Positions 18,834-27,088 of a stretch of 64,000 nucleotides of DNA are shown in pieces. A program made the position numbers and the translations under genes. This DNA is from an uncultured Bacteroidia bacterium (GTDB lineage Bacteria > Bacteroidota > Bacteroidia > Bacteroidales > CAJPTX01). Numbering within the stretch: position 1 is the first letter of the stretch; every line of letters starts with the position of its first letter. The notes under the pieces are model-generated. The model did not search any database. It saw only the letters and a list, made by a program, of their open reading frames with translations, and was not told the DNA's origin. The DNA lies in the NCBI GenBank assembly GCA_938038735.1, contig CALHSW010000076.1, forward strand, positions 413 through 64,412, given 5' to 3'.

Positions 18834-20639
18834 CTATTTGGATGCAGCAGAGGCGAAAAGATCCTTCACCCCATCCTCGTTGAGCAGTATATACGTTGGG
18901 GAGCCGAGAGGGTCAATGGCGGGCGCATGGCAGGCGAAGAGGTCGTGGAGCAGCGTCTGTAGCTGTTGCTCCGCGAGGGACTGCGCCCTACCAATGGCGG
19001 CGGCAAAGGCCAAGTGCTTCAGGTAGTCATCATGCGCCTCGGCGTGTGCCGATTCGTTGGTGGAGTGGTCTGTATCTAACATTTCTACTACAAGGTCGGC
19101 ACACTTATCGGGTGATAGCCAGTGGGGTATTGCGAGCAGGGATAGGGTGGAGGTGGCATCCTGCTGCTGAACGGCGAAGCCCAACTTTTGCGCCTCTGGA
19201 ATGAAGTCTTGCAGCACGGCGCGTTGGGTAGCGTTAAGGGGAATGGTAATCGGCATGGCAAGGCGCTGCGAAACGCCATGCTGAGGCGCTGCCGCGCAGA
19301 GCTGCTCGTAGAGAATACGGGCGTGCGCCCTATGCTGATCCACGATGGCAACAAGCCCCTCGCCCATTGGGGTCACGATGTAGTGGTCTGCAAGCTGGAA
19401 AGCTTTGCTTAGGGCGGCTTGCGACGTGAGCGAGGGCGGCTGCGAAAGGCTGTTCATCTGCGAAGGAATGGCCCTGCGCATACTTCCGTCCCCGGTTGGT
19501 TTTGCCGTATTGGGCATTCGCCAAGGAGCATCGGCCAGCGCGCTCGCCGACTCCGTGCGCTCCTGCTCCGAGATAGAGAAAAAGGAGGAGGGCGGGAAGA
19601 AACTGCTAGAGGTGAGCGGCGGTGTGCTGAAATCTATCTGCGGCATGCCGCTATGCTTCCCGAGCACCTCCCGCACGGCGGAGTGCAGCAGCTGCCATAT
19701 CACTTGGTCGTTTTCAAATTTAATCTCCGTTTTCTGCGGGTGGATATTCACGTCGATGGTAGCGGGGTCAACTGTGAAGAAAACGAAGAAGATAGGCATC
19801 ATGTCGGTGGCTATCAGCTTCTCGAATGCGGCGTAGATGGCCCTATTGAGGGCGGGGTTACGCATGAAGCGTGCGTTGACGAAGAGGAACTGCTCCCCGG
19901 CTCTCCGCTTTGCCGCTTTGGGCGTTCCGATAAACCCCTCAATGTCCACAAGGTCAGTGTGAACGGTTATGGGGAGGAGGTTCTTTTCGAGCTTCTGCCC
20001 GAAGAGGGCGAGAATGCGCTCCTTGCGATTGGATACGTGTAGGTCGTATAGCACCGCGCTATCGTGCGATAGGCGCATAGCCACCTGCGGGTTGGCTAGC
20101 GCAACACGTTGAAACTCGCTGACAATATGCTTTAGCTCCACGGAAGTACTCTTCAGGAAGCGCCGCCTCGCCGGTACATTGAAGAAGAGGTTCCGTACAA
20201 AAAAGTTTGTGCCAACAGGCGCAGCCACGGGGGTGTGGTCAAGCACCTTAGACGCCGCAAGCGTTACCTGCGTACCCATCTCATCCTCAGCGCGCCGCGT
20301 TATGAGCGTTACCTCAGCCACGGCGGCAATTGAGGCGAGAGCCTCTCCGCGGAAGCCCATAGTGGCAATGGCACTAAGGTCGTGCGCCTCATGAATTTTT
20401 GACGTAGCGTGGCGTTCAAAGCATAGCCGCGCGTCGGTGTGCGACATACCCTGCCCGTTGTCCACCACCTGAATTCCCGCCTTCCCCGCGTCGAACGCAT
20501 TGAGCTGTATTGCCGATGCACCCGCATCGATGCTATTCTCCAGCAGCTCCTTCACCACGGAGGCGGGGCGCTGCACCACCTCCCCCGCGGCGATTTGGTT
20601 CGCTACGCTGTCCGGCAAAAGGTTGATGATATCCGACAT
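18834..20639 (-). CDS. mutL: DNA mismatch repair endonuclease MutL
   Basis: N-terminal GHKL ATPase signature IINLLPDSVANQIAAGEVVQRPASVVKELLENSIDAG. 601 aa. Confidence 0.93.
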   Translation of the reverse strand: MSDIINLLPDSVANQIAAGEVVQRPASVVKELLENSIDAGASAIQLNAFDAGKAGIQVVDNGQGMSHTDARLCFERHATSKIHEAHDLSAIATMGFRGEALASIAAVAEVTLITRRAEDEMGTQVTLAASKVLDHTPVAAPVGTNFFVRNLFFNVPARRRFLKSTSVELKHIVSEFQRVALANPQVAMRLSHDSAVLYDLHVSNRKERILALFGQKLEKNLLPITVHTDLVDIEGFIGTPKAAKRRAGEQFLFVNARFMRNPALNRAIYAAFEKLIATDMMPIFFVFFTVDPATIDVNIHPQKTEIKFENDQVIWQLLHSAVREVLGKHSGMPQIDFSTPPLTSSSFFPPSSFFSISEQERTESASALADAPWRMPNTAKPTGDGSMRRAIPSQMNSLSQPPSLTSQAALSKAFQLADHYIVTPMGEGLVAIVDQHRAHARILYEQLCAAAPQHGVSQRLAMPITIPLNATQRAVLQDFIPEAQKLGFAVQQQDATSTLSLLAIPHWLSPDKCADLVVEMLDTDHSTNESAHAEAHDDYLKHLAFAAAIGRAQSLAEQQLQTLLHDLFACHAPAIDPLGSPTYILLNEDGVKDLFASAASK

Positions 20640-20647
20640 CTTCCTTT

Positions 20648-20935
20648 CTAGAGTCTCAAGTAAACGTAGAACACTAGCACCAGCACGCCAAAAATGATTA
20701 GCGTACGCACCCCCTGCGCCCGTCGCGGGGAGTGTGAACGCTGGGCCCGCGCGGAGTCAAAGGCCATGCGCATGCGCACCTGCGCCAGCCCGCTTGTAGC
20801 GTCCGTTTGCTCGCCACGCTCTAGACGTGCAGCCTCTTCGAGAGCCCTGATACGCTCCTTGCGCGGATCGTAGTAGCGCGCCTTGAAGTCAAACTGCCTC
20901 GGTTTTCGGGTTGCAAAAGGACTATAAATTCCCAT
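20648..20935 (-). CDS. Small hypothetical protein with a C-terminal TM helix (first gene of the mutL operon)
   Basis: Start moved to the ATG at 20935 (MGIYSPF...), which lies 22 nt downstream of a -7 box. The track ORF start (21004) would lie upstream of the promoter. Confidence 0.55.
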   Translation of the reverse strand: MGIYSPFATRKPRQFDFKARYYDPRKERIRALEEAARLERGEQTDATSGLAQVRMRMAFDSARAQRSHSPRRAQGVRTLIIFGVLVLVFYVYLRL

Positions 20936-20957
20936 CTCTATTCCATTGAATCGTTTG

Positions 20958-20965
20958 CAAAGGTA
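20958..20965 (-). promoter_or_regulatory. -7 box TACCTTTG for the small-ORF/mutL/rhomboid/EEP/apbE operon
   Basis: Plus-strand CAAAGGTA equals minus-strand TACCTTTG, an exact TAnnTTTG match. Confidence 0.5.
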
Positions 20966-21073
20966 GTGAATTTTCGTCTTCTCCCCCATGGGGCTTTTCC
21001 CCATTGGCGATACGAAGCGTTACGCCTACTTGCGCTGCTAGTGCTGTACAGCTCTTCTTACGCCGCACCAATG

Positions 21074-23449
21074 CTAGTACAGCGTTCCTCGGTCTGTATC
21101 CTCATTCTCCAAGCTGCGTCGGGGTCGGTAATCATTCCCCGCCGAGAAGTAGTAGCTAACGGTAAGGCTCGCCTTCCAATGCTCATCCTGCTCCGTTGTC
21201 CTCTGCCACTGATACAAGTCAAAAACATCGTGGCTTACCGTTTCGTAGCTGACGGCCCTAAACATGTACTCCAATGCCAGGTAGATGCTCCACGAATCGT
21301 TACCCCAAAACCCCATTAATGAGGTTGATTCGTGATTCTTAGTGTACGAGCCCTGCGAGAGCGCGCTGTACGGGATAGAAACATCTCCCTGCGCGCCCCA
21401 TCCCTGGTATTGAAACGAAATGCTCGCCCCCGCAGGGAAGGAGAAACCGGATGCCGCCTTCTCCTTAGTAAACTGGAATAGCGAGTAGCACGCCTTTGCG
21501 TATGGGCTAAGGGTAAGCCTATCATCTCCGAGGGGCTTAATGGATAGGCTGAGGCTCAGCTCGGCAAGCTGGGAGAATTGGCCGTTGTTTGCTTGCGTGA
21601 CCATAGCCTTCCTCCCGCCAATGTCAGCCAGCCCATAGCCTACGTACCAAAATCTATGCGTGTACCCATACCTCGCGGCACTTCGGATGGCGATGTAAGC
21701 ATTACGCCACATGTAGGAGAGCTGCGCCATGGCATCGTAGCTATTCTTCAGCATGGGATTGTTACGCCGGTATAAATCCTCCCGGATTTGAATTGTGGCT
21801 TCCGTGGTCTCCCCGAACTCCGGGATGTTGTTCTGCGTCCCTAGGTCAAGCCGTAGGCGGCTGTTATGCGGCAGGTACCATCCGAACGACACGCTAGGGT
21901 TGAAGGTCCAGTGCACCTGCGATTGGTCAAGCCCCCGGTGGCTGGATACGTAATGTACATTCACCGCGGGCACCGCCCGAAAGAAAAAATTGTTGCGCGA
22001 TATGCTCCACGCTGCGTAAGCGCGGTCACGCAGCTGGTGCTGTTGATCAATTGCGTTAAGCGCATCCGATTGATTGATAGAAATTTTAGCATGCGAGAAC
22101 ATCAACGTTGTTCCGGCGTTGAATGCCATCTTCCCAATCGGCAATTCGTAGTCAAGCTGGGCAATGATGGAGTTCTTATCAGTTTTGGCATTCAAATCGT
22201 TGGCCATCACGCCCTCTTCCTTCGCAGCGATTAGGTACTCGTGTGCCGCATATTTGGTGTAGCTGTTTGCATTCGTATACACCACGTTAGCCGTAAGTTT
22301 ATCGTTCCGCTTCGCAAAGTAGTGGTCGTAGTACAAATCCACCACATGCACAAGCGAACCGTTGTTCGATAGCTGGGTCCCGCGGCGTTGCTGCCTATTA
22401 TTGCCGAGTAGCACGAGTCCCTCGTACGTGTTGGGATTGCTAAACTGATCCCACCTGCCTGAATAAAAAACCTCGAGAAACTGTTTTTTAGGCTCGTTGT
22501 AGGAGTAGCTTAACTTGAGAAAGGCATTGCTAGAAGTGAATTTACTTAGCCCTTCCACCTCGTACCTGTTTTGGCGCCATGTTGTGTAGTCCGTGATTTC
22601 CTCTCCAATCCTGCCCTTTCTTAGTTTTCTAAAAAAGCCTTTACTGAAAAGTTTGAATTGGTGCCCACCAGAGTTGTAGTTGTAGTAAATCCGTCCCGAA
22701 ACGTCCGACATCAGCGGGGCTGTGTAGACCTCGAACCCGGCGTGGTGGCCATCGTCAAGCGGTTTGGTAATCACATCGATTACAGGCTTGGTGGTGTTGT
22801 ATCGCTCTGGAGCCACGTCGAAGTAGTCAATGTGAACAATCTTCGATGCGGAAATTGACCGTAGCTCCTGCATGGTTCCATGGTGTCCATTGATGAGGAT
22901 AAGGGGCGGCTCTCCGCCTATTGCTGAGGCAATCTCCCCATTGCCAGCCAGTTTGAGCTCGGGGAGTAGCAATGCAAGGTTAAAGCTAGTTTTTGCCTCG
23001 CGCATCTGCGCTGAGCTAAAGGAATAGCTTTGGCGATTGATTCCAACTTTCCGCAGGGCTGACACCCTCACTGCGTCCATCTCTACCGTTTTTGACTCTT
23101 TGGCCAAATTGAAATCACGCCGTGAAATACCAGCGATGCTATCGGTAGGAATTGTTTTGACGACCGCCTCAAACCCCACGTAGCACACCTCTACGAGGTA
23201 TTGCTTAGCGTAGGGCGGTTCTATATTGAGTACGTAGAACCCGCTCTTGTCCGTATAGGTAAAGCGTACCGGATTCGCCGTCACCGAATCGGCATGTAGG
23301 GCAACGAGGGCCATCTCGGCCGGTGTCCCTTCCTCCAAAATGACATACCCATTTACCGCTTTCTTTTCTTTTGGCTCTTGCGCCAACGCCCCGCTACCCA
23401 CAATGCTACATAGGGATAACACTAGTAGAAGTACTACAAATTTGCTCAT
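21074..23449 (-). CDS. TonB-dependent-receptor-like outer-membrane beta-barrel protein (CarboxypepD_reg-like + plug-like + barrel), third gene of the RiPP operon
   Basis: Signal peptide MSKFVVLLLVLSLCSIVGSGALAQ. N-terminal Ig-like segment NGYVILEEGTPAEMALVAL...GFYVLNI. Plug-like NLALLLPELKL...GEPPLILINGH...IVHIDYFDVAPERYN. Alternating beta-strand pattern with a C-terminal aromatic residue. Starts 9 nt after the rSAM stop. Confidence 0.82.
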   Translation of the reverse strand: MSKFVVLLLVLSLCSIVGSGALAQEPKEKKAVNGYVILEEGTPAEMALVALHADSVTANPVRFTYTDKSGFYVLNIEPPYAKQYLVEVCYVGFEAVVKTIPTDSIAGISRRDFNLAKESKTVEMDAVRVSALRKVGINRQSYSFSSAQMREAKTSFNLALLLPELKLAGNGEIASAIGGEPPLILINGHHGTMQELRSISASKIVHIDYFDVAPERYNTTKPVIDVITKPLDDGHHAGFEVYTAPLMSDVSGRIYYNYNSGGHQFKLFSKGFFRKLRKGRIGEEITDYTTWRQNRYEVEGLSKFTSSNAFLKLSYSYNEPKKQFLEVFYSGRWDQFSNPNTYEGLVLLGNNRQQRRGTQLSNNGSLVHVVDLYYDHYFAKRNDKLTANVVYTNANSYTKYAAHEYLIAAKEEGVMANDLNAKTDKNSIIAQLDYELPIGKMAFNAGTTLMFSHAKISINQSDALNAIDQQHQLRDRAYAAWSISRNNFFFRAVPAVNVHYVSSHRGLDQSQVHWTFNPSVSFGWYLPHNSRLRLDLGTQNNIPEFGETTEATIQIREDLYRRNNPMLKNSYDAMAQLSYMWRNAYIAIRSAARYGYTHRFWYVGYGLADIGGRKAMVTQANNGQFSQLAELSLSLSIKPLGDDRLTLSPYAKACYSLFQFTKEKAASGFSFPAGASISFQYQGWGAQGDVSIPYSALSQGSYTKNHESTSLMGFWGNDSWSIYLALEYMFRAVSYETVSHDVFDLYQWQRTTEQDEHWKASLTVSYYFSAGNDYRPRRSLENEDTDRGTLY

Positions 23450-23458
23450 GTAAGCTTG

Positions 23459-24961
23459 TCAGTTTATGTGCCAGTATGTATTAATCGGTTTTGGAGCCTT
23501 CGGGCATAGTGGATCAGGAAAAAAGCAATTATCCTCCCCATACGCCATGAGGACCGTCTTCCAGCACACCCCTCTCTCCCGCCGACACGCATCAAAATCG
23601 TTGCATGTTCTACATGGACTATCGGATGGAATATTGCCCCTCTTCAAATAGAACAAGTCAAGCGCCTTTTGAGAATTCCACACCTCTAGGAGGCTTTTCT
23701 CTTTGAGGTCGCCTATAATGAATGTGGGATTATCGTAAAGCTCCTCGCAAATCGTCACCCTTCCATCTGGTAAAACTACCGCGCTCCTTGTGTTTGCTGT
23801 GCAAAACGCACGACTAGCAAAACGGCGGCTGGAGCTACGGTTCTCGAGAGAGTGTTCACCTTCAGAAAAGGTGAACCGTATCTGCGGATACCTGCTTTTC
23901 ACCTCTCCGTTAAGATGCACTGAGAGCGTATCTATTGCGCTTCGTGCAGCAGCATAGGCGGAGAAAGACTTCCTGTAGAGAGAATATCCAGCGGGTGAAA
24001 ACGATATTTGTTTTACGCATGTATGCTCAGATAAAAATTCAACGAGAGCATCCATGCTCTGAATTGACGAGTTCTTATTGGTAATCAACGAGTTGATCTG
24101 TACATGAACCCCCGCATTACTCAGCATGCCTAAAGCGTTTGACATGTCTCTGATGTATCGATTCCCTTGAACGCGAAGCAAAGCCGAACTCGCTTCATAG
24201 TCCACAGTGTCCATTGAAATCTGAAATCGCGGTATGCCTAAGTCAATAATTTTCTCCGCAACATCTTCCTTAATTGGGATTTTCGTTGATATGAGGGGAG
24301 AATATCCATGCGCAACGAGCGCTTTAACCACATCAAACCACTGTGGGTAAAGTAACACCTCTCCTCCATTGATGTCCACTTTAGCCACTCCTTTTTCTGC
24401 TGCCTGTTCAATCAAATCCAAGACAGCCTCATATCCAAATGCGGGGTGGTTGGGTATGGGACGCCTTGCGTAGCAATATACGCAATCGGTTAAGCATTTA
24501 GTTGTCAAGACCACATTCAAATTCACAGGAACGCCCAACCTCTCTGGTGGAGTAAAGTCGTACGCTTCTGACGTAAATACATCTGGGTCGTACGACCTGA
24601 AAGTAAGACCGTCCCTTACTGGAACCAGCATGTACTGTGGCACGGTTTGCGTTGCGCTACCGATTCGATTGGATACAACTTCACTGTTATTAATGTACAG
24701 ACTTGCACAATCAACGCAGGCATCGAAGGGCACACCCAGCCTTTCCGATGCCTGTTGTGCTGCCTCTCGTAGCGTCCGCCTCCCATCGAAGCAAGCAAAT
24801 AGAATAGCGGTTAGCAAATGGATATGTGTAAGAAAACCCTCCCTATGCGGTATCTCTTCGAATACCCTGCCGCCTTCGCAAAGCGTACCCACTCCGCCAT
24901 CGCGCCGCATACAGTAGTTAGGGTTGATACCAACAATCACATTTGAATCGATCCTTTCCAT
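23459..24961 (-). CDS. Radical SAM/SPASM-domain peptide maturase with an N-terminal RRE(PqqD)-like region (CXXX-repeat-target type suspected)
   Basis: CX3CX2C at TKCLTDCVYCYARR. C-terminal auxiliary-cluster pattern FCTANTRSAVVLPDGRVTIC (CX12GX4C), then CRTCNDFDACRRERGVC and CFFPDPLC. N-terminal LLTAILFACFDGRRTLREAAQQASERLGV resembles a PqqD-like RiPP recognition element. Confidence 0.85.
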   Translation of the reverse strand: MERIDSNVIVGINPNYCMRRDGGVGTLCEGGRVFEEIPHREGFLTHIHLLTAILFACFDGRRTLREAAQQASERLGVPFDACVDCASLYINNSEVVSNRIGSATQTVPQYMLVPVRDGLTFRSYDPDVFTSEAYDFTPPERLGVPVNLNVVLTTKCLTDCVYCYARRPIPNHPAFGYEAVLDLIEQAAEKGVAKVDINGGEVLLYPQWFDVVKALVAHGYSPLISTKIPIKEDVAEKIIDLGIPRFQISMDTVDYEASSALLRVQGNRYIRDMSNALGMLSNAGVHVQINSLITNKNSSIQSMDALVEFLSEHTCVKQISFSPAGYSLYRKSFSAYAAARSAIDTLSVHLNGEVKSRYPQIRFTFSEGEHSLENRSSSRRFASRAFCTANTRSAVVLPDGRVTICEELYDNPTFIIGDLKEKSLLEVWNSQKALDLFYLKRGNIPSDSPCRTCNDFDACRRERGVCWKTVLMAYGEDNCFFPDPLCPKAPKPINTYWHIN

Positions 24962-24996
24962 ATCCGAGCTAGGAGATGGCTACTTCGCTTACACCC

Positions 24997-25039
24997 AAAA
25001 GAAGCACGGCGAGACTCCGCGCTAACGTTCGCCGCTTCT
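24997..25039 (-). terminator. Candidate partial terminator/attenuator hairpin between the precursor and maturase genes
   Basis: Minus strand: AGAAGC-GGCGA / TCGCC-(GT bulge)-GCTTCT, 16-nt loop, then TTTGGG. It lies in the 113-nt spacer. Confidence 0.35.
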
Positions 25040-25074
25040 CCCAAATTCTATTGAATACTAACTCAATGAATAGC

Positions 25075-25269
25075 CTATTTGTGACCTATTTGCCCTGCAT
25101 TTCCACCCGTCTTACTGCTCTCCTTGCATCCGTCCTTACAGCTTTCCCTACAACTCTCTTTGCAGCTGTCAAACCAGCAGTTAAACCATCCAGAATCAGC
25201 CGACGTGCCGCCCGTTCCGCCAAGGATGTCAAGCTTCTCTTCCTGGGTAAACTCATCGATACTCTTCAT
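25075..25269 (-). CDS. RiPP precursor peptide: double-glycine leader + C-x3 cysteine-repeat core (64 aa)
   Basis: MKSIDEFTQEEKLDILGG | TGGTSADSGWFNCWFDSCKESCRESCKDGCKESSKTGGNAGQIGHK. ATG at 25269 lies 46 nt downstream of a -7 box. Four 12-nt TG(C/T)-AxG-GAx-xxx units are visible in the DNA. Confidence 0.8.
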   Translation of the reverse strand: MKSIDEFTQEEKLDILGGTGGTSADSGWFNCWFDSCKESCRESCKDGCKESSKTGGNAGQIGHK

Positions 25270-25314
25270 AATTACGCCCCTTTCTCGTTTTATGTCTGTA
25301 ACAATCAAACAGCA

Positions 25315-25322
25315 CAAAGTTA
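25315..25322 (-). promoter_or_regulatory. -7 box TAACTTTG driving the precursor/rSAM/barrel operon
   Basis: Plus-strand CAAAGTTA equals minus-strand TAACTTTG. No canonical -33 TTTG at 19-21 nt spacing. Confidence 0.5.
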
Positions 25323-25753
25323 AAACTTTTTTTTTAACAGAAGAGCTATTCAAAGCATCTTTTCAACTGAGACATGTAAGGTGCTTGTATTCAATGGCTT
25401 GTTAGTAAAAAAAACTACGCATCAAAAAAGCTTAACCCCAAAAACGGCAGTCTGCGGCAATGTGCAGCCCCCCTTCCGCAGCGTAGAAAGGATAGTGACG
25501 AGCTTTGCAAATACTATACTCATGCATCTAAAGCGAAGCTAGGGGCCTTTGCTGCGCGGCGAACCGCAGTTCGGCTATTACCAAGGGCGCACGCGTCTCC
25601 TCCTTGGTACGTTCTATACCTCCGCCCGCACCATGTCCTGTGTGCCGCCCATCCTCCAAGCGTGTATCGTAGCAAACAGAGGGGGCTTACCGTGGGCGTA
25701 CTATTCATGGCTCCCAATCGTTCTGCGCAACCCCGCACCGAAGCCGCACCAAA

Positions 25754-25805
25754 TTCGCATCAAATTCGGATTTCTCCGGAGAAATCCGAATTTGATGCGA
25801 AGGGG
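25754..25805. repeat. Palindromic intergenic repeat, copy 1 (52 bp identical to 61632-61683; perfect 48-bp palindrome at 25754-25801)
   Basis: TTCGCATCAAATTCGGATTTCTCC|GGAGAAATCCGAATTTGATGCGAA is self-complementary around a central CCGG. The same 52-mer recurs at 61.63 kb. Confidence 0.9.
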
Positions 25806-25968
25806 ATCCGAATTTAGGGCATGTTTTTCCCAGTTTTAATGCGCCATTGGGCAACGTAACCGGGGAGGAAGCGAAGGGGTAGGCGATACGTTTCAAAGTT
25901 TTGATTAACTTCGCGAAGGTGATGTGGTTGCTAGAGAATGGATTGACGTATAACGAAACAAGGGTAAA

Positions 25969-26301
25969 ATGGGCTTGGAACTAGATCCGAATCGATTATT
26001 TTACGGCATTGGGGAGGTGGCGAAAATACTTGATGTGCCGCAAAGTACGCTGCGCTACTGGGAGCAAAACTTTCCGCAGCTCTCCCCCAAGAAGGGGGCC
26101 AATGGCCGTCGGCAGTATACGTCCTCCGACGTGCGTATGCTGAAGGAGATACGGCATTTGCTGAAGGTGGAGGGGGTGTCAATAGAGCAGGCGCGCCATA
26201 GGCTGGGGCAGGCCGATCGGCGGGAGCAGAATCGGATGTCGGCGGTAAGCAAATTGATGGAGCTCAAGCGGAAGCTGCAGGAGTTGCAAAACAAAATTTA
26301 A
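25969..26301 (+). CDS. MerR-family helix-turn-helix transcriptional regulator
   Basis: YGIGEVAKILDVPQSTLRYWEQNFPQL...GRRQYTSSDVRMLKEIRHLL is a typical MerR N-terminal HTH plus wing. Coiled-coil C-terminus. Confidence 0.85.
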   Translation: MGLELDPNRLFYGIGEVAKILDVPQSTLRYWEQNFPQLSPKKGANGRRQYTSSDVRMLKEIRHLLKVEGVSIEQARHRLGQADRREQNRMSAVSKLMELKRKLQELQNKI

Positions 26302-26302
26302 G

Positions 26303-27088
26303 ATGCGGGTAACAGTGGGCGATGTGGCCGCGGCGATTGAAGAGTTTGCGCCGCTGTCGCTACAGGAGGAGTACGATAATAGCGGGCTGCAGGTAGGGCG
26401 CATTGATAGCGAAGTGCGCGGGGTGCTTGTCTGCTTTGACGTGAACGAGGCAGTACTCGACGAGGCTGAGGCGCAGGGGTGCGACATGGTGGTGTCGCAC
26501 CACCCGGTGCTATTTCGGGGTATAAAATATTTTACAGGGGCTATACGTGAGGGAAATCTCGTGGAGCGCGCCATAAAAAATGGGGTCACGCTATACGCTG
26601 CGCATACGAACCTGGATTTTGCCCGTGGTGGGGTGAGCTACGTGATGGGGAGTCGGCTGGGGCTGGAGGGGATGATGGCATTGCGTACCGATGCCGCGGG
26701 GCGAGAGATGGGGGTAGTCGGCTCGCTAGCGCATGCAGTGCCGCCCGCGGCGTTCCTAGCACTGCTCAAGGAACGTCTCAAATGCTCCACTATTCGCTAC
26801 AACGCAGAGAGCTCGGTGGGCGAGGTGCGGCGGGTGGCGCTATGCGGCGGGAGCGGAATGGACCTCTACAATGAGGCATTGCAGAAAAAGGCTGATGCAT
26901 TTGTCACGGGAGATGCAAAATACCATGATTTTCAGCGTGGCATAGGGCAGATGTTGCTAGTGGATGTGGGGCATCGGGAGAGCGAGTGGGGGGCAGTCCG
27001 TTTGCTAGCGGATATAATTCGTGAGAAAATACCTAACTTCGCGGTTCACGAGAGTGTTCGTGATGGGAGTCCGGTGCGGTACTACTAA
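26303..27088 (+). CDS. Nif3-family dinuclear metal centre protein (YbgI/GTP cyclohydrolase 1 type 2 homologue)
   Basis: MVVSHHPVLFRGIK, LYAAHTNLDFA and C-terminal GHRESE metal-ligand contexts. Confidence 0.88.
   Translation: MRVTVGDVAAAIEEFAPLSLQEEYDNSGLQVGRIDSEVRGVLVCFDVNEAVLDEAEAQGCDMVVSHHPVLFRGIKYFTGAIREGNLVERAIKNGVTLYAAHTNLDFARGGVSYVMGSRLGLEGMMALRTDAAGREMGVVGSLAHAVPPAAFLALLKERLKCSTIRYNAESSVGEVRRVALCGGSGMDLYNEALQKKADAFVTGDAKYHDFQRGIGQMLLVDVGHRESEWGAVRLLADIIREKIPNFAVHESVRDGSPVRYY

What the first reader, a model, noticed from the sequence alone, without database searches (positions are those of the whole stretch)
25075..25269. Precursor peptide hidden inside a 92-aa track ORF: class-II-bacteriocin-like GG leader fused to a C-x3 repeat core
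Seen in the sequence:
- The track ORF starts at 25353, but that codon lies upstream of the -7 box at 25315-25322.
- The internal ATG at 25269 gives MKSIDEFTQEEKLDILGG-TGGTSADSGWFNCWFDSCKESCRESCKDGCKESSKTGGNAGQIGHK.
- The leader matches the double-glycine pattern (acidic/helical ...EEKLDILGG).
- The core has five Cys spaced 5-4-4-4, with the unit C-(K/R)-(E/D)-(S/G) repeated four times. The DNA shows this as four 12-nt units.
- The C-terminus is Gly/Lys-rich.

Inference: each repeat supplies one Cys donor and one acidic or Ser acceptor, which would allow up to four nested or tandem thioether rings. Alternatively the free thiolates and carboxylates form a metal-binding array.
Basis: partly seen in the sequence, partly recalled or inferred. 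Interest (0 to 1): 0.7.

Follow-up and report, generated by a model that had tools for sequence, protein, structure and literature searches.

The report
Cysteine-repeat peptide precursor with maturase
A real 64-residue gene encodes the precursor of a cysteine-repeat peptide that a neighbouring radical-SAM enzyme most likely cross-links; it belongs to a widespread but uncharacterised family in gut and rumen Bacteroidota, paired with an outer-membrane transporter-like protein.

Summary
On the minus strand, ATG 25269 to TAG 25075 encodes a 64-aa peptide with an ...EEKLDILGG leader and a 46-aa core carrying CKES-CRES-CKDG-CKES.

The longer 92-aa frame is not the gene. One strain has a 1-nt deletion inside it, and distant homologues start at the same Met.

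The gene heads a three-gene cassette: precursor, a 500-aa radical-SAM/SPASM maturase (24961-23459), and a 791-aa TonB-dependent-transporter-like outer-membrane protein (23449-21074).

In 79 public Bacteroidota loci holding the maturase family:
- 58 carry GG-leader, Cys-rich small ORFs.
- 64% of Cys-Cys spacings are exactly 4 (shuffles 10%).
- The residue before each Cys is Gly/Ser/Ala in 83%.

No curated NCBIfam or Pfam family covers the peptide or the maturase. Relatives' peptides match the NCBIfam CXXX-repeat radical-SAM target models only below threshold.

The cassette is 0.0-0.3% divergent among five strains whose flanks differ by 1-5%, and it has lower GC. That points to recent exchange as a unit.

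The most likely product is a thioether-cross-linked RiPP, but the chemistry is untested. No C39 exporter lies in the window. I rate it a new variant of a known kind.

The parts
25315..25322 (-). Bacteroidetes-type -7 promoter box TAACTTTG
   Evidence: Read directly; it matches TAnnTTTG. It lies downstream of TTG 25353, so that start would fall outside the transcript. The box is identical in all five strains. No clear -33 TTTG lies at the canonical 19-21 nt spacing. Function as a promoter is inferred.
25075..25269 (-). Precursor peptide gene (64 aa): leader residues 1-18 (25269-25216, ends in GG), core residues 19-64 (25215-25078), stop 25077-25075
   Evidence: called as 64 aa in public assemblies; the frameshift in L083 excludes the 92-aa frame; homologues share the start, the GG and the Cys period.
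25117..25164 (-). Four C-x3 units CKES-CRES-CKDG-CKES, preceded by Cys31 at 25179-25177
   Evidence: The family-wide period-4 Cys pattern is shown.
25003..25023 (-). Terminator-like hairpin followed by TCTTTTGGGT, between the precursor and maturase genes (possible attenuator)
   Evidence: One search found one site against 0.7 expected in shuffles. The fold of the whole spacer is not unusual (z = -0.19). This is weak evidence.
23459..24961 (-). Radical-SAM/SPASM peptide maturase, 500 aa: N-terminal RRE-like domain, C156-x3-C160-x2-C163, and seven invariant C-terminal Cys
   Evidence: Pfam PF04055 and PF13186 match. Invariant Cys are listed. The AF2 model has pLDDT 87. Foldseek top hits are SuiB, PqqE, SkfB and CteB. 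No curated NCBIfam family matches above cutoff.
21074..23449 (-). TonB-dependent-transporter-like outer-membrane protein, 791 aa: signal peptide, CarboxypepD_reg domain, TonB-box-like and plug-like segment, large beta-barrel
   Evidence: Pfam gives sub-threshold CarboxypepD_reg hits. hhalign to the N-terminus of the window's SusC-like protein gives probability 87.7%. The AF2 model is poor (pLDDT 55), but all top-50 Foldseek hits are TonB-dependent transporters. Homologues lie next to the maturase in 45 of 79 public loci.
21003..25372 (.). Low-divergence block (the cassette as a unit): 0.0-0.28% divergence among five strains, against 1-5% in the flanks; GC 49.4% against 54-55%

Best explanation
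The 64-aa ORF is the precursor of a ribosomally made, post-translationally modified peptide (RiPP).

Proposed steps:
1. Transcription starts just downstream of the -7 box.
2. The 18-residue double-glycine leader (...EEKLDILGG) docks on the N-terminal RRE-like domain of the adjacent radical-SAM/SPASM enzyme.
3. That enzyme acts repeatedly along the core, which presents Cys every fourth residue, each preceded by a small residue.
4. The most likely chemistry is one intramolecular thioether (sactionine- or ranthionine-type) per Cys, up to five here, giving a compact, hydrophilic, polycyclic peptide.
5. The leader is then removed after GG by a C39-peptidase ABC exporter. This exporter is encoded in cis in many relatives but not within this 64-kb window.
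6. The conserved TonB-dependent-transporter-like barrel moves the product across the outer membrane. The direction, out or back in, is unknown.

Shown: the gene, its start, the leader/core architecture, the conserved genetic linkage of precursor, maturase and barrel, and the family-wide Cys period.

Inferred: leader-RRE binding, thioether chemistry, cleavage after GG, and the role of the barrel.
For: Gene and start.

Homologous maturases form a large Bacteroidota family:
- More than 240 proteins match.
- 294 stretches in the one-genome-per-species collection of 185,579 species encode a relative.

Precursors next to those maturases:
- 58 of 79 loci hold GG/GA/GS-leader, Cys-rich small ORFs.
- 64% of Cys-Cys spacings equal 4, against 9.8% in shuffles.
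- Gly/Ser/Ala precedes Cys in 83% of units.
- The closest clade shares the leader EEFTQEEKLxILGG and the core GCKEGCKxGCKDGCKES(S/A/C)KT.

Maturase:
- It has rSAM and SPASM domains.
- It has the CX3CX2C motif plus 7 invariant SPASM Cys. PMC10352776 reports the same 7-Cys count for the thioether-forming enzymes QhpD, CteB and Tte1186.
- The confident model (pLDDT 87) aligns over its full length to SuiB and also matches PqqE, SkfB and CteB. All are peptide-modifying radical-SAM/SPASM enzymes.

Other support:
- A C39 exporter lies in cis in 35 of 79 loci, including the closest homologue, locus L084.
- A Cys-to-Gly sactionine precedent exists: StsB (PMC10288494).
- The cassette behaves as one evolutionary unit.
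- No substitution occurs in the precursor, its promoter or the spacer among five strains.
Against: - No chemistry was or could be tested here.
- The maturase matches no curated sacti- or ranthi-synthase model above cutoff. The best hits are generic: PqqE 63 bits, and StsB 43 bits against a cutoff of 625.
- The best structural neighbour, SuiB, makes a C-C bond rather than a C-S bond.
- No acceptor residue is conserved.
- No C39 exporter lies anywhere in the 64-kb window, so leader removal in this organism is unexplained.
- The peptide matches no GG-leader or RiPP precursor HMM.
- In one assembly (GCA_003555645.1) the maturase carries a 2-nt deletion near codon 54. This could mean decay, or it could be an assembly error.
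Confidence: 0.62

Rival explanations
1. It is a RiPP precursor, but the maturase performs a different reaction from thioether formation. Candidates are oxidation of Cys to formylglycine (as anSME does), epimerisation, a C-C or C-O cross-link, or a new Cys-centred linkage. One example of the last would be a link between successive Cys units or to the neighbouring Lys.
For: - The top fold match is SuiB, a Lys-Trp C-C cross-linking enzyme; anSME is also among the hits.
- The best HMM hits are PqqE and MftC.
- No conserved acceptor exists. Only [G/S/A]-Cys and the period are conserved, which fits an enzyme that acts on the Cys itself.
- Lys follows Cys in 33% of units, and in nearly all units of the closest clade.
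Against: - From the radical-SAM RiPP literature (own knowledge, not tested here): the characterised SPASM maturases acting on Cys-rich precursors are mostly thioether-forming.
- The anSME recognition motif (C/S-x-P/A-x-R; own knowledge) is absent from the core (sequence).
- The aromatic residues needed for cyclophane-type links are absent from most family members.
Confidence: 0.18
2. The mature product is a metal-binding peptide (a metallophore or periplasmic metal buffer). Its thiolates, with or without radical-SAM tailoring, chelate a soft metal. The TonB-dependent-transporter-like protein takes the loaded peptide back up.
For: - The core is hydrophilic and rich in Cys, Lys, Asp, Glu, Ser and Gly; the resemblance to metallothioneins is a by-eye comparison from own knowledge.
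- An importer-type barrel is the most conserved partner (45 of 79 loci), more common than the exporter (35 of 79). It belongs to the exchanged cassette.
- Fold hits for the barrel include metal and metallophore transporters such as OprC, ZnuD and FptA.
- A MerR-family gene lies divergently upstream.
Against: - A strict CxxxC period is unusual for metallothionein-type chelation, which favours CxC or CxxC (general knowledge).
- A dedicated radical-SAM enzyme with an RRE-like domain implies covalent modification.
- No metal-homeostasis genes recur in the 79 loci.
- The MerR gene lies outside the low-divergence block.
- The barrel model has low confidence.
Confidence: 0.12
3. It is an unmodified or merely disulfide-bonded class-II-type bacteriocin or signal peptide, like the bacteroidetocins. 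Its position next to the radical-SAM gene would then be incidental.
For: - The leader is of the GG type.
- Unmodified GG-leader peptides, the bacteroidetocins, are known in Bacteroidales (cited in PMC10352776).
Against: - The precursor-maturase linkage holds in 58 of 79 loci across many families and even phyla.
- The maturase has an RRE-like domain.
- Precursor, maturase and barrel share one low-divergence block.
- The core has no amphipathic or hydrophobic segment typical of class II bacteriocins.
Confidence: 0.04
4. It is a decaying or orphan cassette in this organism. Without a cognate C39 exporter the peptide is made but never processed, or the locus is silent.
For: - No C39 ABC exporter lies in the 64-kb window, while the closest homologue's locus has one directly downstream.
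- One strain has a frameshifted maturase.
Against: - The reading frames are intact in the window and in three other strains.
- Divergence across 4.3 kb is near zero, including the promoter. This argues for recent spread and/or selection, not decay.
- The exporter could lie elsewhere in the genome.
Confidence: 0.04

Closest known systems
Sactipeptides and ranthipeptides, i.e. radical-SAM/SPASM thioether RiPPs (examples: SCIFF CteA/CteB, freyrasin PapA/PapB with CX3D repeats, StsA/StsB with Cys-Gly sactionines)
   Same: - A short precursor consists of a leader plus a Cys-rich core.
- The adjacent maturase has RRE-like, rSAM and SPASM parts, with 7 SPASM Cys.
- The Cys motifs are periodic, as in PapA (own knowledge).
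- A small residue next to each Cys recalls the Cys-Gly links made by StsB (PMC10288494).
   Different: - The maturase reaches none of the curated synthase models: StsB 43 bits against a 625 cutoff, and AlbA and SkfB only weakly.
- There is no conserved acceptor such as the Asp in CX3D.
- The host is Gram-negative Bacteroidota, the leader is a GG leader, and a TonB-dependent-transporter-like partner is present.
- The chemistry is unproven.
NCBIfam/TIGRFAMs CXXX-repeat radical-SAM target peptide models (TIGR04114, TIGR04117, TIGR04118). Their attribution to Haft and Basu 2011 and the cognate maturase model TIGR04115 are from own knowledge.
   Same: - Cys occurs every fourth residue in a small peptide encoded next to a radical-SAM/SPASM enzyme.
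- Five of nine close relatives give weak hits to these three models (E 0.04-0.08).
   Different: - The hits are below threshold, and the window's own peptide gives none.
- TIGR04115 is not among the maturase's hits.
- This family adds a GG leader, C39 exporters and the outer-membrane barrel.
Bacteroidales rSAM + GG-leader + C39 exporter + OMP gene clusters, described bioinformatically by Fernandez-Cantos et al. 2023 (PMC10352776), and the TIGR04148/04149/04150 'GG-Bacteroidales' system (model names from own knowledge)
   Same: - The general cluster logic and taxon are the same.
- That paper notes exporter-plus-OMP clusters without a membrane-fusion protein, and GG-leader precursors in clusters that lack an exporter.
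   Different: - No pseudo-rSAM gene is present, and no TIGR04148, TIGR04149 or TIGR04150 hit appears among the results shown.
- CKDGC, CKEGC and CKESC, the motif strings searched, do not occur in the three supplementary files held for that paper.
- None of those clusters has been characterised experimentally.
TonB-dependent transporters linked to peptide natural products (MbnT for methanobactin uptake; Myxococcus Oar, a CarboxypepD_reg-bearing transporter needed for protein export). Own knowledge.
   Same: - The barrel is encoded inside the peptide cluster.
- It has an N-terminal CarboxypepD_reg extension, a TonB-box-like segment and a plug-like segment.
   Different: - No Pfam Plug or TonB_dep_Rec match is found.
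- The model has low confidence.
- The direction of transport is unknown.

Membership tests
Double-glycine-leader peptides processed by C39-peptidase ABC exporters | A leader of about 15-25 residues ending in GG (or GA/GS), with hydrophobic residues near -4, -7, -12 and -15 and an acidic residue near -8 | tested here: met
   In the leader MKSIDEFTQEEKLDILGG, Ile is at -4, Leu at -6 (not -7), Glu at -8 and -9, Phe at -12 and Ile at -15. GG is invariant in the close clade.
Double-glycine-leader peptides processed by C39-peptidase ABC exporters | Match to a curated leader or precursor HMM in NCBIfam or Pfam | tested here: not met
   The 64-aa peptide has no family at E <= 1 in NCBIfam or Pfam.
Double-glycine-leader peptides processed by C39-peptidase ABC exporters | A cognate C39-peptidase ABC exporter encoded with the precursor | tested here: not met
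   There is no tblastn hit to the family's exporter anywhere in the 64-kb window. The exporter is present in 35 of 79 related loci and directly downstream in the closest homologue's locus L084. The rest of the genome could not be searched.
Sactipeptide/ranthipeptide (radical-SAM thioether RiPPs) | An adjacent radical-SAM enzyme with CX3CX2C and a SPASM domain | tested here: met
   PF04055 and PF13186 are above cutoff. C156, C160, C163 and seven C-terminal Cys are invariant in 20 homologues.
Sactipeptide/ranthipeptide (radical-SAM thioether RiPPs) | An N-terminal leader-recognition (RRE) domain on the maturase | tested here: inconclusive
   The full-length Foldseek alignment to RRE-bearing SuiB spans about 505 alignment columns at E 1e-18. 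Several N-terminal residues are conserved. However, no PqqD/RRE Pfam hit was found.
Sactipeptide/ranthipeptide (radical-SAM thioether RiPPs) | Conserved Cys donors in the core | tested here: met
   Cys period 4 holds in 64% of spacings across 59 precursors, against 9.8% in shuffles.
Sactipeptide/ranthipeptide (radical-SAM thioether RiPPs) | The maturase falls in a characterised sacti- or ranthi-synthase family | tested here: not met
   NCBIfam gives only sub-cutoff generic hits: StsB 43 bits against a cutoff of 625, SkfB 37 against 300, and AlbA only in some homologues.
Sactipeptide/ranthipeptide (radical-SAM thioether RiPPs) | Cys sulfur to carbon thioether bonds in the product | not testable with these tools
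   This needs mass spectrometry or NMR of the modified peptide.
CXXX-repeat radical-SAM target systems (TIGR04114/04117/04118 peptides; TIGR04115 maturase) | Cys every fourth residue in a small peptide next to a radical-SAM/SPASM gene | tested here: met
CXXX-repeat radical-SAM target systems (TIGR04114/04117/04118 peptides; TIGR04115 maturase) | HMM membership of the peptide and of the maturase | tested here: not met
   The window's peptide has no hit. Five of nine relatives hit at E 0.04-0.08, below threshold. TIGR04115 is absent from the maturase hits shown.
GG-Bacteroidales rSAM system (TIGR04148 maturase, TIGR04149 peptide, TIGR04150 pseudo-rSAM) | HMM matches and a pseudo-rSAM partner gene | tested here: not met
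   No such hits were found. The cassette has only one rSAM-type gene.
TonB-dependent transporter (for the 791-aa protein) | A 22-strand barrel with an N-terminal plug and TonB box | tested here: inconclusive
   All top-50 Foldseek hits are TonB-dependent transporters, but the model is poor (pLDDT 55; TM 0.33-0.48). hhalign to the first 197 residues of a SusC-like protein gives probability 87.7%. No Pfam Plug or TonB_dep_Rec hit was found. PF14905 is recorded for a homologue in L089.

The most novel reading that the evidence does not exclude
The precursor, the maturase and a dedicated TonB-dependent-transporter-like barrel together form the core of a Bacteroidota-wide RiPP class. In this class the radical-SAM enzyme would install a new periodic modification on [Gly/Ser]-Cys repeats. 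The product would then be taken up again through the barrel, as a peptide metallophore or as a self-signal. The three-gene cassette, which needs no private exporter, would spread between strains by recombination because it confers an immediate benefit.
Probability: 0.15. Interest if true: 0.8.

Novelty: new variant of a known kind. Interest (0 to 1): 0.55.

Why it matters
Radical-SAM RiPPs from Gram-negative gut anaerobes are almost entirely uncharacterised.

- **Reach.** This family occurs in hundreds of Bacteroidota genomes, including Segatella copri, Parabacteroides and many rumen and gut MAGs. It has no curated model for either the precursor or the enzyme.
- **Enzymology.** The substrate is unusually regular, a small residue plus Cys every four residues, with copy number varying from 2 to more than 7. 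That makes it a clean system for asking how a SPASM enzyme works processively, and what it links Cys to when no acceptor is conserved.
- **Transport.** The conserved transporter-like barrel raises a testable question about how Bacteroidota move modified peptides across the outer membrane without a membrane-fusion protein, or whether they re-import them.
- **Ecology.** The tenfold-lower divergence of the cassette relative to its flanks suggests recent spread within a species. That is a hint of ecological value.

Tried and rejected
- **Curated families.** NCBIfam and Pfam scans of the peptide gave nothing. Scans of the maturase and 19 homologues gave only generic sub-cutoff hits.
- **Word-indexed protein search with the peptide.** It found only itself and one relative.
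- **Exhaustive profile search of 1.84 billion representatives.** It found only 12 hits, so sequence searches cannot trace the precursor family. Neighbourhood scanning was needed instead.
- **Sequence search of PDB with the maturase.** The hits were weak: SkfB, PqqE and MoaA.
- **Outer-membrane protein.** Pfam on 8 homologues and a PDB profile search gave no Plug or TonB_dep_Rec hit. The AF2 model is poor.
- **Rfam scan of 20000-27000.** No match.
- **Sigma-70 promoter scan.** None found, as expected for Bacteroidota.
- **Spacer RNA fold.** It is not unusual.
- **Antisense ORFs.** Stop-free antisense stretches across the precursor gene exist in the window and in relatives alike. Their presence therefore says nothing either way.
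- **Literature.** 'CXXX repeat' plus 'radical SAM' found no paper. PMC3133131, the PMC id given for Haft and Basu 2011 in the reference list of PMC8939145, is not held. Motif strings were not found in the supplements of PMC10352776. No supplements are held for PMC10288494.
- **92-aa ORF.** Rejected on the L083 frameshift, the position of the -7 box and the homologue starts.
- **Acidic-acceptor model.** Rejected on repeat-unit composition.
Full report
**1. What is in the sequence**

On the minus strand, ATG 25269-25267 opens a 64-codon frame that ends at TAG 25077-25075. It encodes MKSIDEFTQEEKLDILGG-TGGTSADSGWFNCWFDSCKESCRESCKDGCKESSKTGGNAGQIGHK.
- The mechanical ORF list extends this frame upstream to TTG 25353 (92 aa).
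- The octamer TAACTTTG at 25322-25315 fits the Bacteroidetes -7 box TAnnTTTG and lies downstream of that TTG.
- The Cys residues are at positions 31, 36, 40, 44 and 48.
- The four units CKES, CRES, CKDG and CKES occupy 25164-25117.
- At DNA level the units share only 7-10 of 12 bases, and Tandem Repeats Finder does not call them. The periodicity is a protein feature, not a recent DNA duplication.

**2. Which start is real**

Four public contigs of the same species, about 97.3% identical over 10 kb, cover the locus.
- One of them (L083) has a 1-nt deletion in the A9 run at 25335-25327. That run lies inside the 92-aa frame but upstream of ATG 25269. The long frame is broken and the 64-aa ORF is untouched.
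- Gene callers in three of the four assemblies report a 64-aa product.
- Precursors that are 50-61% identical, found next to homologous maturases, begin at the same methionine: MKRIEEFTQEEKLSILGG, MKKFEEFTQEEKLSILGG and MTKGIDEFTQDEKLEILGG.

The 64-aa ORF is the gene.

**3. Neighbours**

Two genes follow directly on the same strand.

*The maturase (24961-23459, 500 aa).*
- It has Radical_SAM and SPASM domains.
- It has C156-x3-C160-x2-C163 and seven invariant C-terminal Cys.
- A confident AlphaFold model (pLDDT 87) aligns over its full length to SuiB and also matches PqqE, SkfB and CteB. All are peptide-modifying radical-SAM/SPASM enzymes, and the SuiB alignment includes its leader-recognition domain.
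- No curated NCBIfam model reaches its cutoff for this protein or for 19 homologues. The best hit is PqqE at 63 bits against a cutoff of 381, and StsB scores 43 against 625. The shown hits include no CXXX-repeat or GG-Bacteroidales maturase model.

*The outer-membrane protein (23449-21074, 791 aa).*
- It has a signal peptide and weak CarboxypepD_reg matches.
- Its profile aligns at 87.7% probability to the first 197 residues of the window's own SusC-like protein. That stretch covers the N-terminal extension, the TonB-box region (MDAVRVSALRK against EQVVVTGYQK) and the first half of the plug.
- The AlphaFold model is poor (pLDDT 55). It still shows a large barrel from about residue 234, and all of its 50 best PDB matches are TonB-dependent transporters.
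- I call it TonB-dependent-transporter-like, with the plug not proven.

**4. The family**

The maturase has more than 240 relatives in the protein collection. In a one-genome-per-species collection, 294 stretches encode a relative. The 79 loci fetched are mainly Bacteroidales, including Segatella copri, Parabacteroides acidifaciens, Hallella, Muribaculum and many gut and rumen MAGs. A few bins are labelled as other phyla.

Scanning the flanks gave these results:
- 58 of 79 loci have small ORFs with a GG, GA or GS leader end and a Cys-rich core. Most lie just upstream of the maturase, some lie downstream, and some occur in tandem sets of two or three.
- In 59 curated precursors, 172 of 268 Cys-Cys spacings equal 4 (64%). 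Residue shuffles give 9.8 +/- 1.8% with a maximum of 17%.
- 45 precursors have at least three Cys in register.
- Within the CxxxC unit, the residue before the next Cys is Gly (94), Ser (39) or Ala (10), together 83%.
- The first position of the unit is Lys in 33%.
- The middle position is variable, with Glu+Asp only 25%.

The closest clade shares the leader EEFTQEEKLxILGG and the core ...(D/N)C(W/F/L)...GCKEGCKxGCKDGCKES(S/A/C)KT. The number of units varies from 2 to 6 and the tails are unrelated.

It also shows that an acidic or Ser acceptor is not a family rule.

**5. Conserved partners**

Clustering all ORFs of the 79 loci gave the following:
- The 780-aa barrel lies next to the maturase in 45 public loci.
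- A C39-peptidase ABC exporter is present in 35.
- An HlyD-type protein is present in only about 6.
- A Prevotella/Segatella clade adds a LanC-like protein and a glycosyl/methyltransferase-like protein. These two labels are by-eye readings of the sequences and were not scanned.

These counts are lower bounds because many contigs are cut.

The closest homologue (58% identity, locus L084) has the order precursor, maturase, barrel, C39 exporter. In this window there is no C39 exporter at all.

**6. The cassette is an evolutionary unit**

Across the five strains, the block 21003-25372 spans the promoter, the precursor, the spacer, the maturase, the barrel and 71 nt beyond it.
- The block differs by 0.00-0.28%.
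- MutL and the rhomboid genes on one side differ by up to 4.1% between strains. In the window-versus-strain comparisons, NIF3/MerR on the other side differ by about 3%.
- The intergenic stretch 25373-25968 differs by 10.5%.
- GC is 49.4% in the block and 54-55% in the flanks.

The sharp edges and the shortage of differences at all sites indicate recent exchange of the three genes together. Purifying selection alone would not produce this. It is independent evidence that the barrel belongs to the system. It also shows that the minimal unit here is precursor plus maturase plus barrel.

**7. Mechanism**

*Shown:* a leader/core precursor, a dedicated radical-SAM/SPASM enzyme with an RRE-like N-terminus, a periodic [small]-Cys substrate, and genetic coupling to a C39 exporter in relatives and to a transporter-like barrel.

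*Inferred:* the leader binds the RRE-like domain. The enzyme then modifies each Cys unit in turn. The leader is cut after Gly18 by a C39 exporter encoded elsewhere, and the barrel handles passage of the outer membrane.

The most probable chemistry is thioether formation, for three reasons:
- From the radical-SAM RiPP literature (my own knowledge), the characterised SPASM enzymes acting on Cys-rich precursors mostly form thioethers: sactipeptides, ranthipeptides and QhpD.
- The SPASM domain has seven Cys, the count PMC10352776 reports for QhpD, CteB and Tte1186.
- Cys-to-Gly sactionines have a precedent in StsB (PMC10288494).

The conserved small residue before each Cys could be the Cα acceptor, or it could simply provide steric access. 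This cannot be decided here. SuiB as best structural neighbour, and PqqE/MftC as best HMM neighbours, keep other chemistries open.

**8. Function of the product**

The function is unknown.
- The core is hydrophilic with balanced charge and has no hydrophobic segment, so it does not look like a membrane-active bacteriocin.
- The importer-type partner permits two readings. It could be an export route, with the Oar transporter of Myxococcus as a precedent (own knowledge). Or it could serve re-uptake of a signal or a metal-loaded peptide, with MbnT as a precedent (own knowledge).

**9. Comparison with what is known**

- The kind is known: radical-SAM/SPASM RiPPs with Cys-rich cores.
- NCBIfam carries CXXX-repeat radical-SAM target peptide models. 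Relatives of this peptide touch TIGR04114, TIGR04117 and TIGR04118 only at E 0.04-0.08.
- Bacteroidales clusters combining rSAM, a GG leader, a C39 exporter and an OMP have been catalogued in silico, and none has been characterised (PMC10352776).
- This family is not covered by any curated model.
- It differs from characterised systems in three ways: it lacks a conserved acceptor, it has a Gram-negative GG-leader context, and it has a conserved transporter-like barrel.

I rate it a new variant of a known kind, of moderate interest.

Noticed in passing
window 25754-25801: A perfect 48-nt palindrome with 24-nt arms and no spacer (TTCGCATCAAATTCGGATTTCTCC / GGAGAAATCCGAATTTGATGCGAA). It lies in the intergenic region between the precursor gene and a divergent MerR-family gene (25969-26301, +). 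There is no Rfam match.
   Followed up: no
window 25373-25968: The intergenic stretch just outside the cassette is hypervariable between strains: 10.5% differences, including a 10-nt indel at 25450-25459. The cassette beside it is almost invariant.
   Followed up: partly
L080 (GCA_003555645.1, QWCB01000004.1) about 2650; corresponds to window 24800-24801: In this public assembly the maturase gene has a 2-nt deletion near codon 54. The public gene call is split into 82-aa and 424-aa pieces. This is either a real pseudogene in that strain or an assembly error.
   Followed up: partly
L002, L003, L004, L005, L006, L008, L049 (downstream of the barrel gene): Loci of the Prevotella/Segatella/Muribaculum clade add a protein of about 350 aa that looks LanC-like by eye. 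Most also add a protein of about 260-470 aa with glycosyltransferase- and methyltransferase-like parts. Their precursors carry two CxxxC blocks separated by a conserved CK(D/E)xxKxG element. The family assignments were not scanned.
   Followed up: partly
L015, L018, L022, L024, L031, L035, L048, L077: Rumen Bacteroidales loci have a 31-34% identical maturase homologue near a NIF3 gene, as in this window. They lack the barrel, and except in L022 no recognisable GG/Cys precursor was found.
   Followed up: no
L020, L030, L050, L058: In bins labelled Aminicenantes, Clostridia or Omnitrophota, the maturase homologues sit beside a different partner of about 370-416 aa. Their Cys-rich small ORFs have a different N-terminal region (...DISxLxGIEYHDPI...) instead of the GG leader.
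   Followed up: no
L009, L029, L045: Some loci carry two or three tandem, divergent precursor genes. In L009 and L045 they lie downstream of the maturase rather than upstream.
   Followed up: no
window 20648-21004 (-): A 118-aa ORF with a hydrophobic C-terminus lies between the barrel gene and mutL. It has no Pfam or NCBIfam match and lies outside the low-divergence block (3-4% divergence), so it is probably not part of the cassette.
   Followed up: partly
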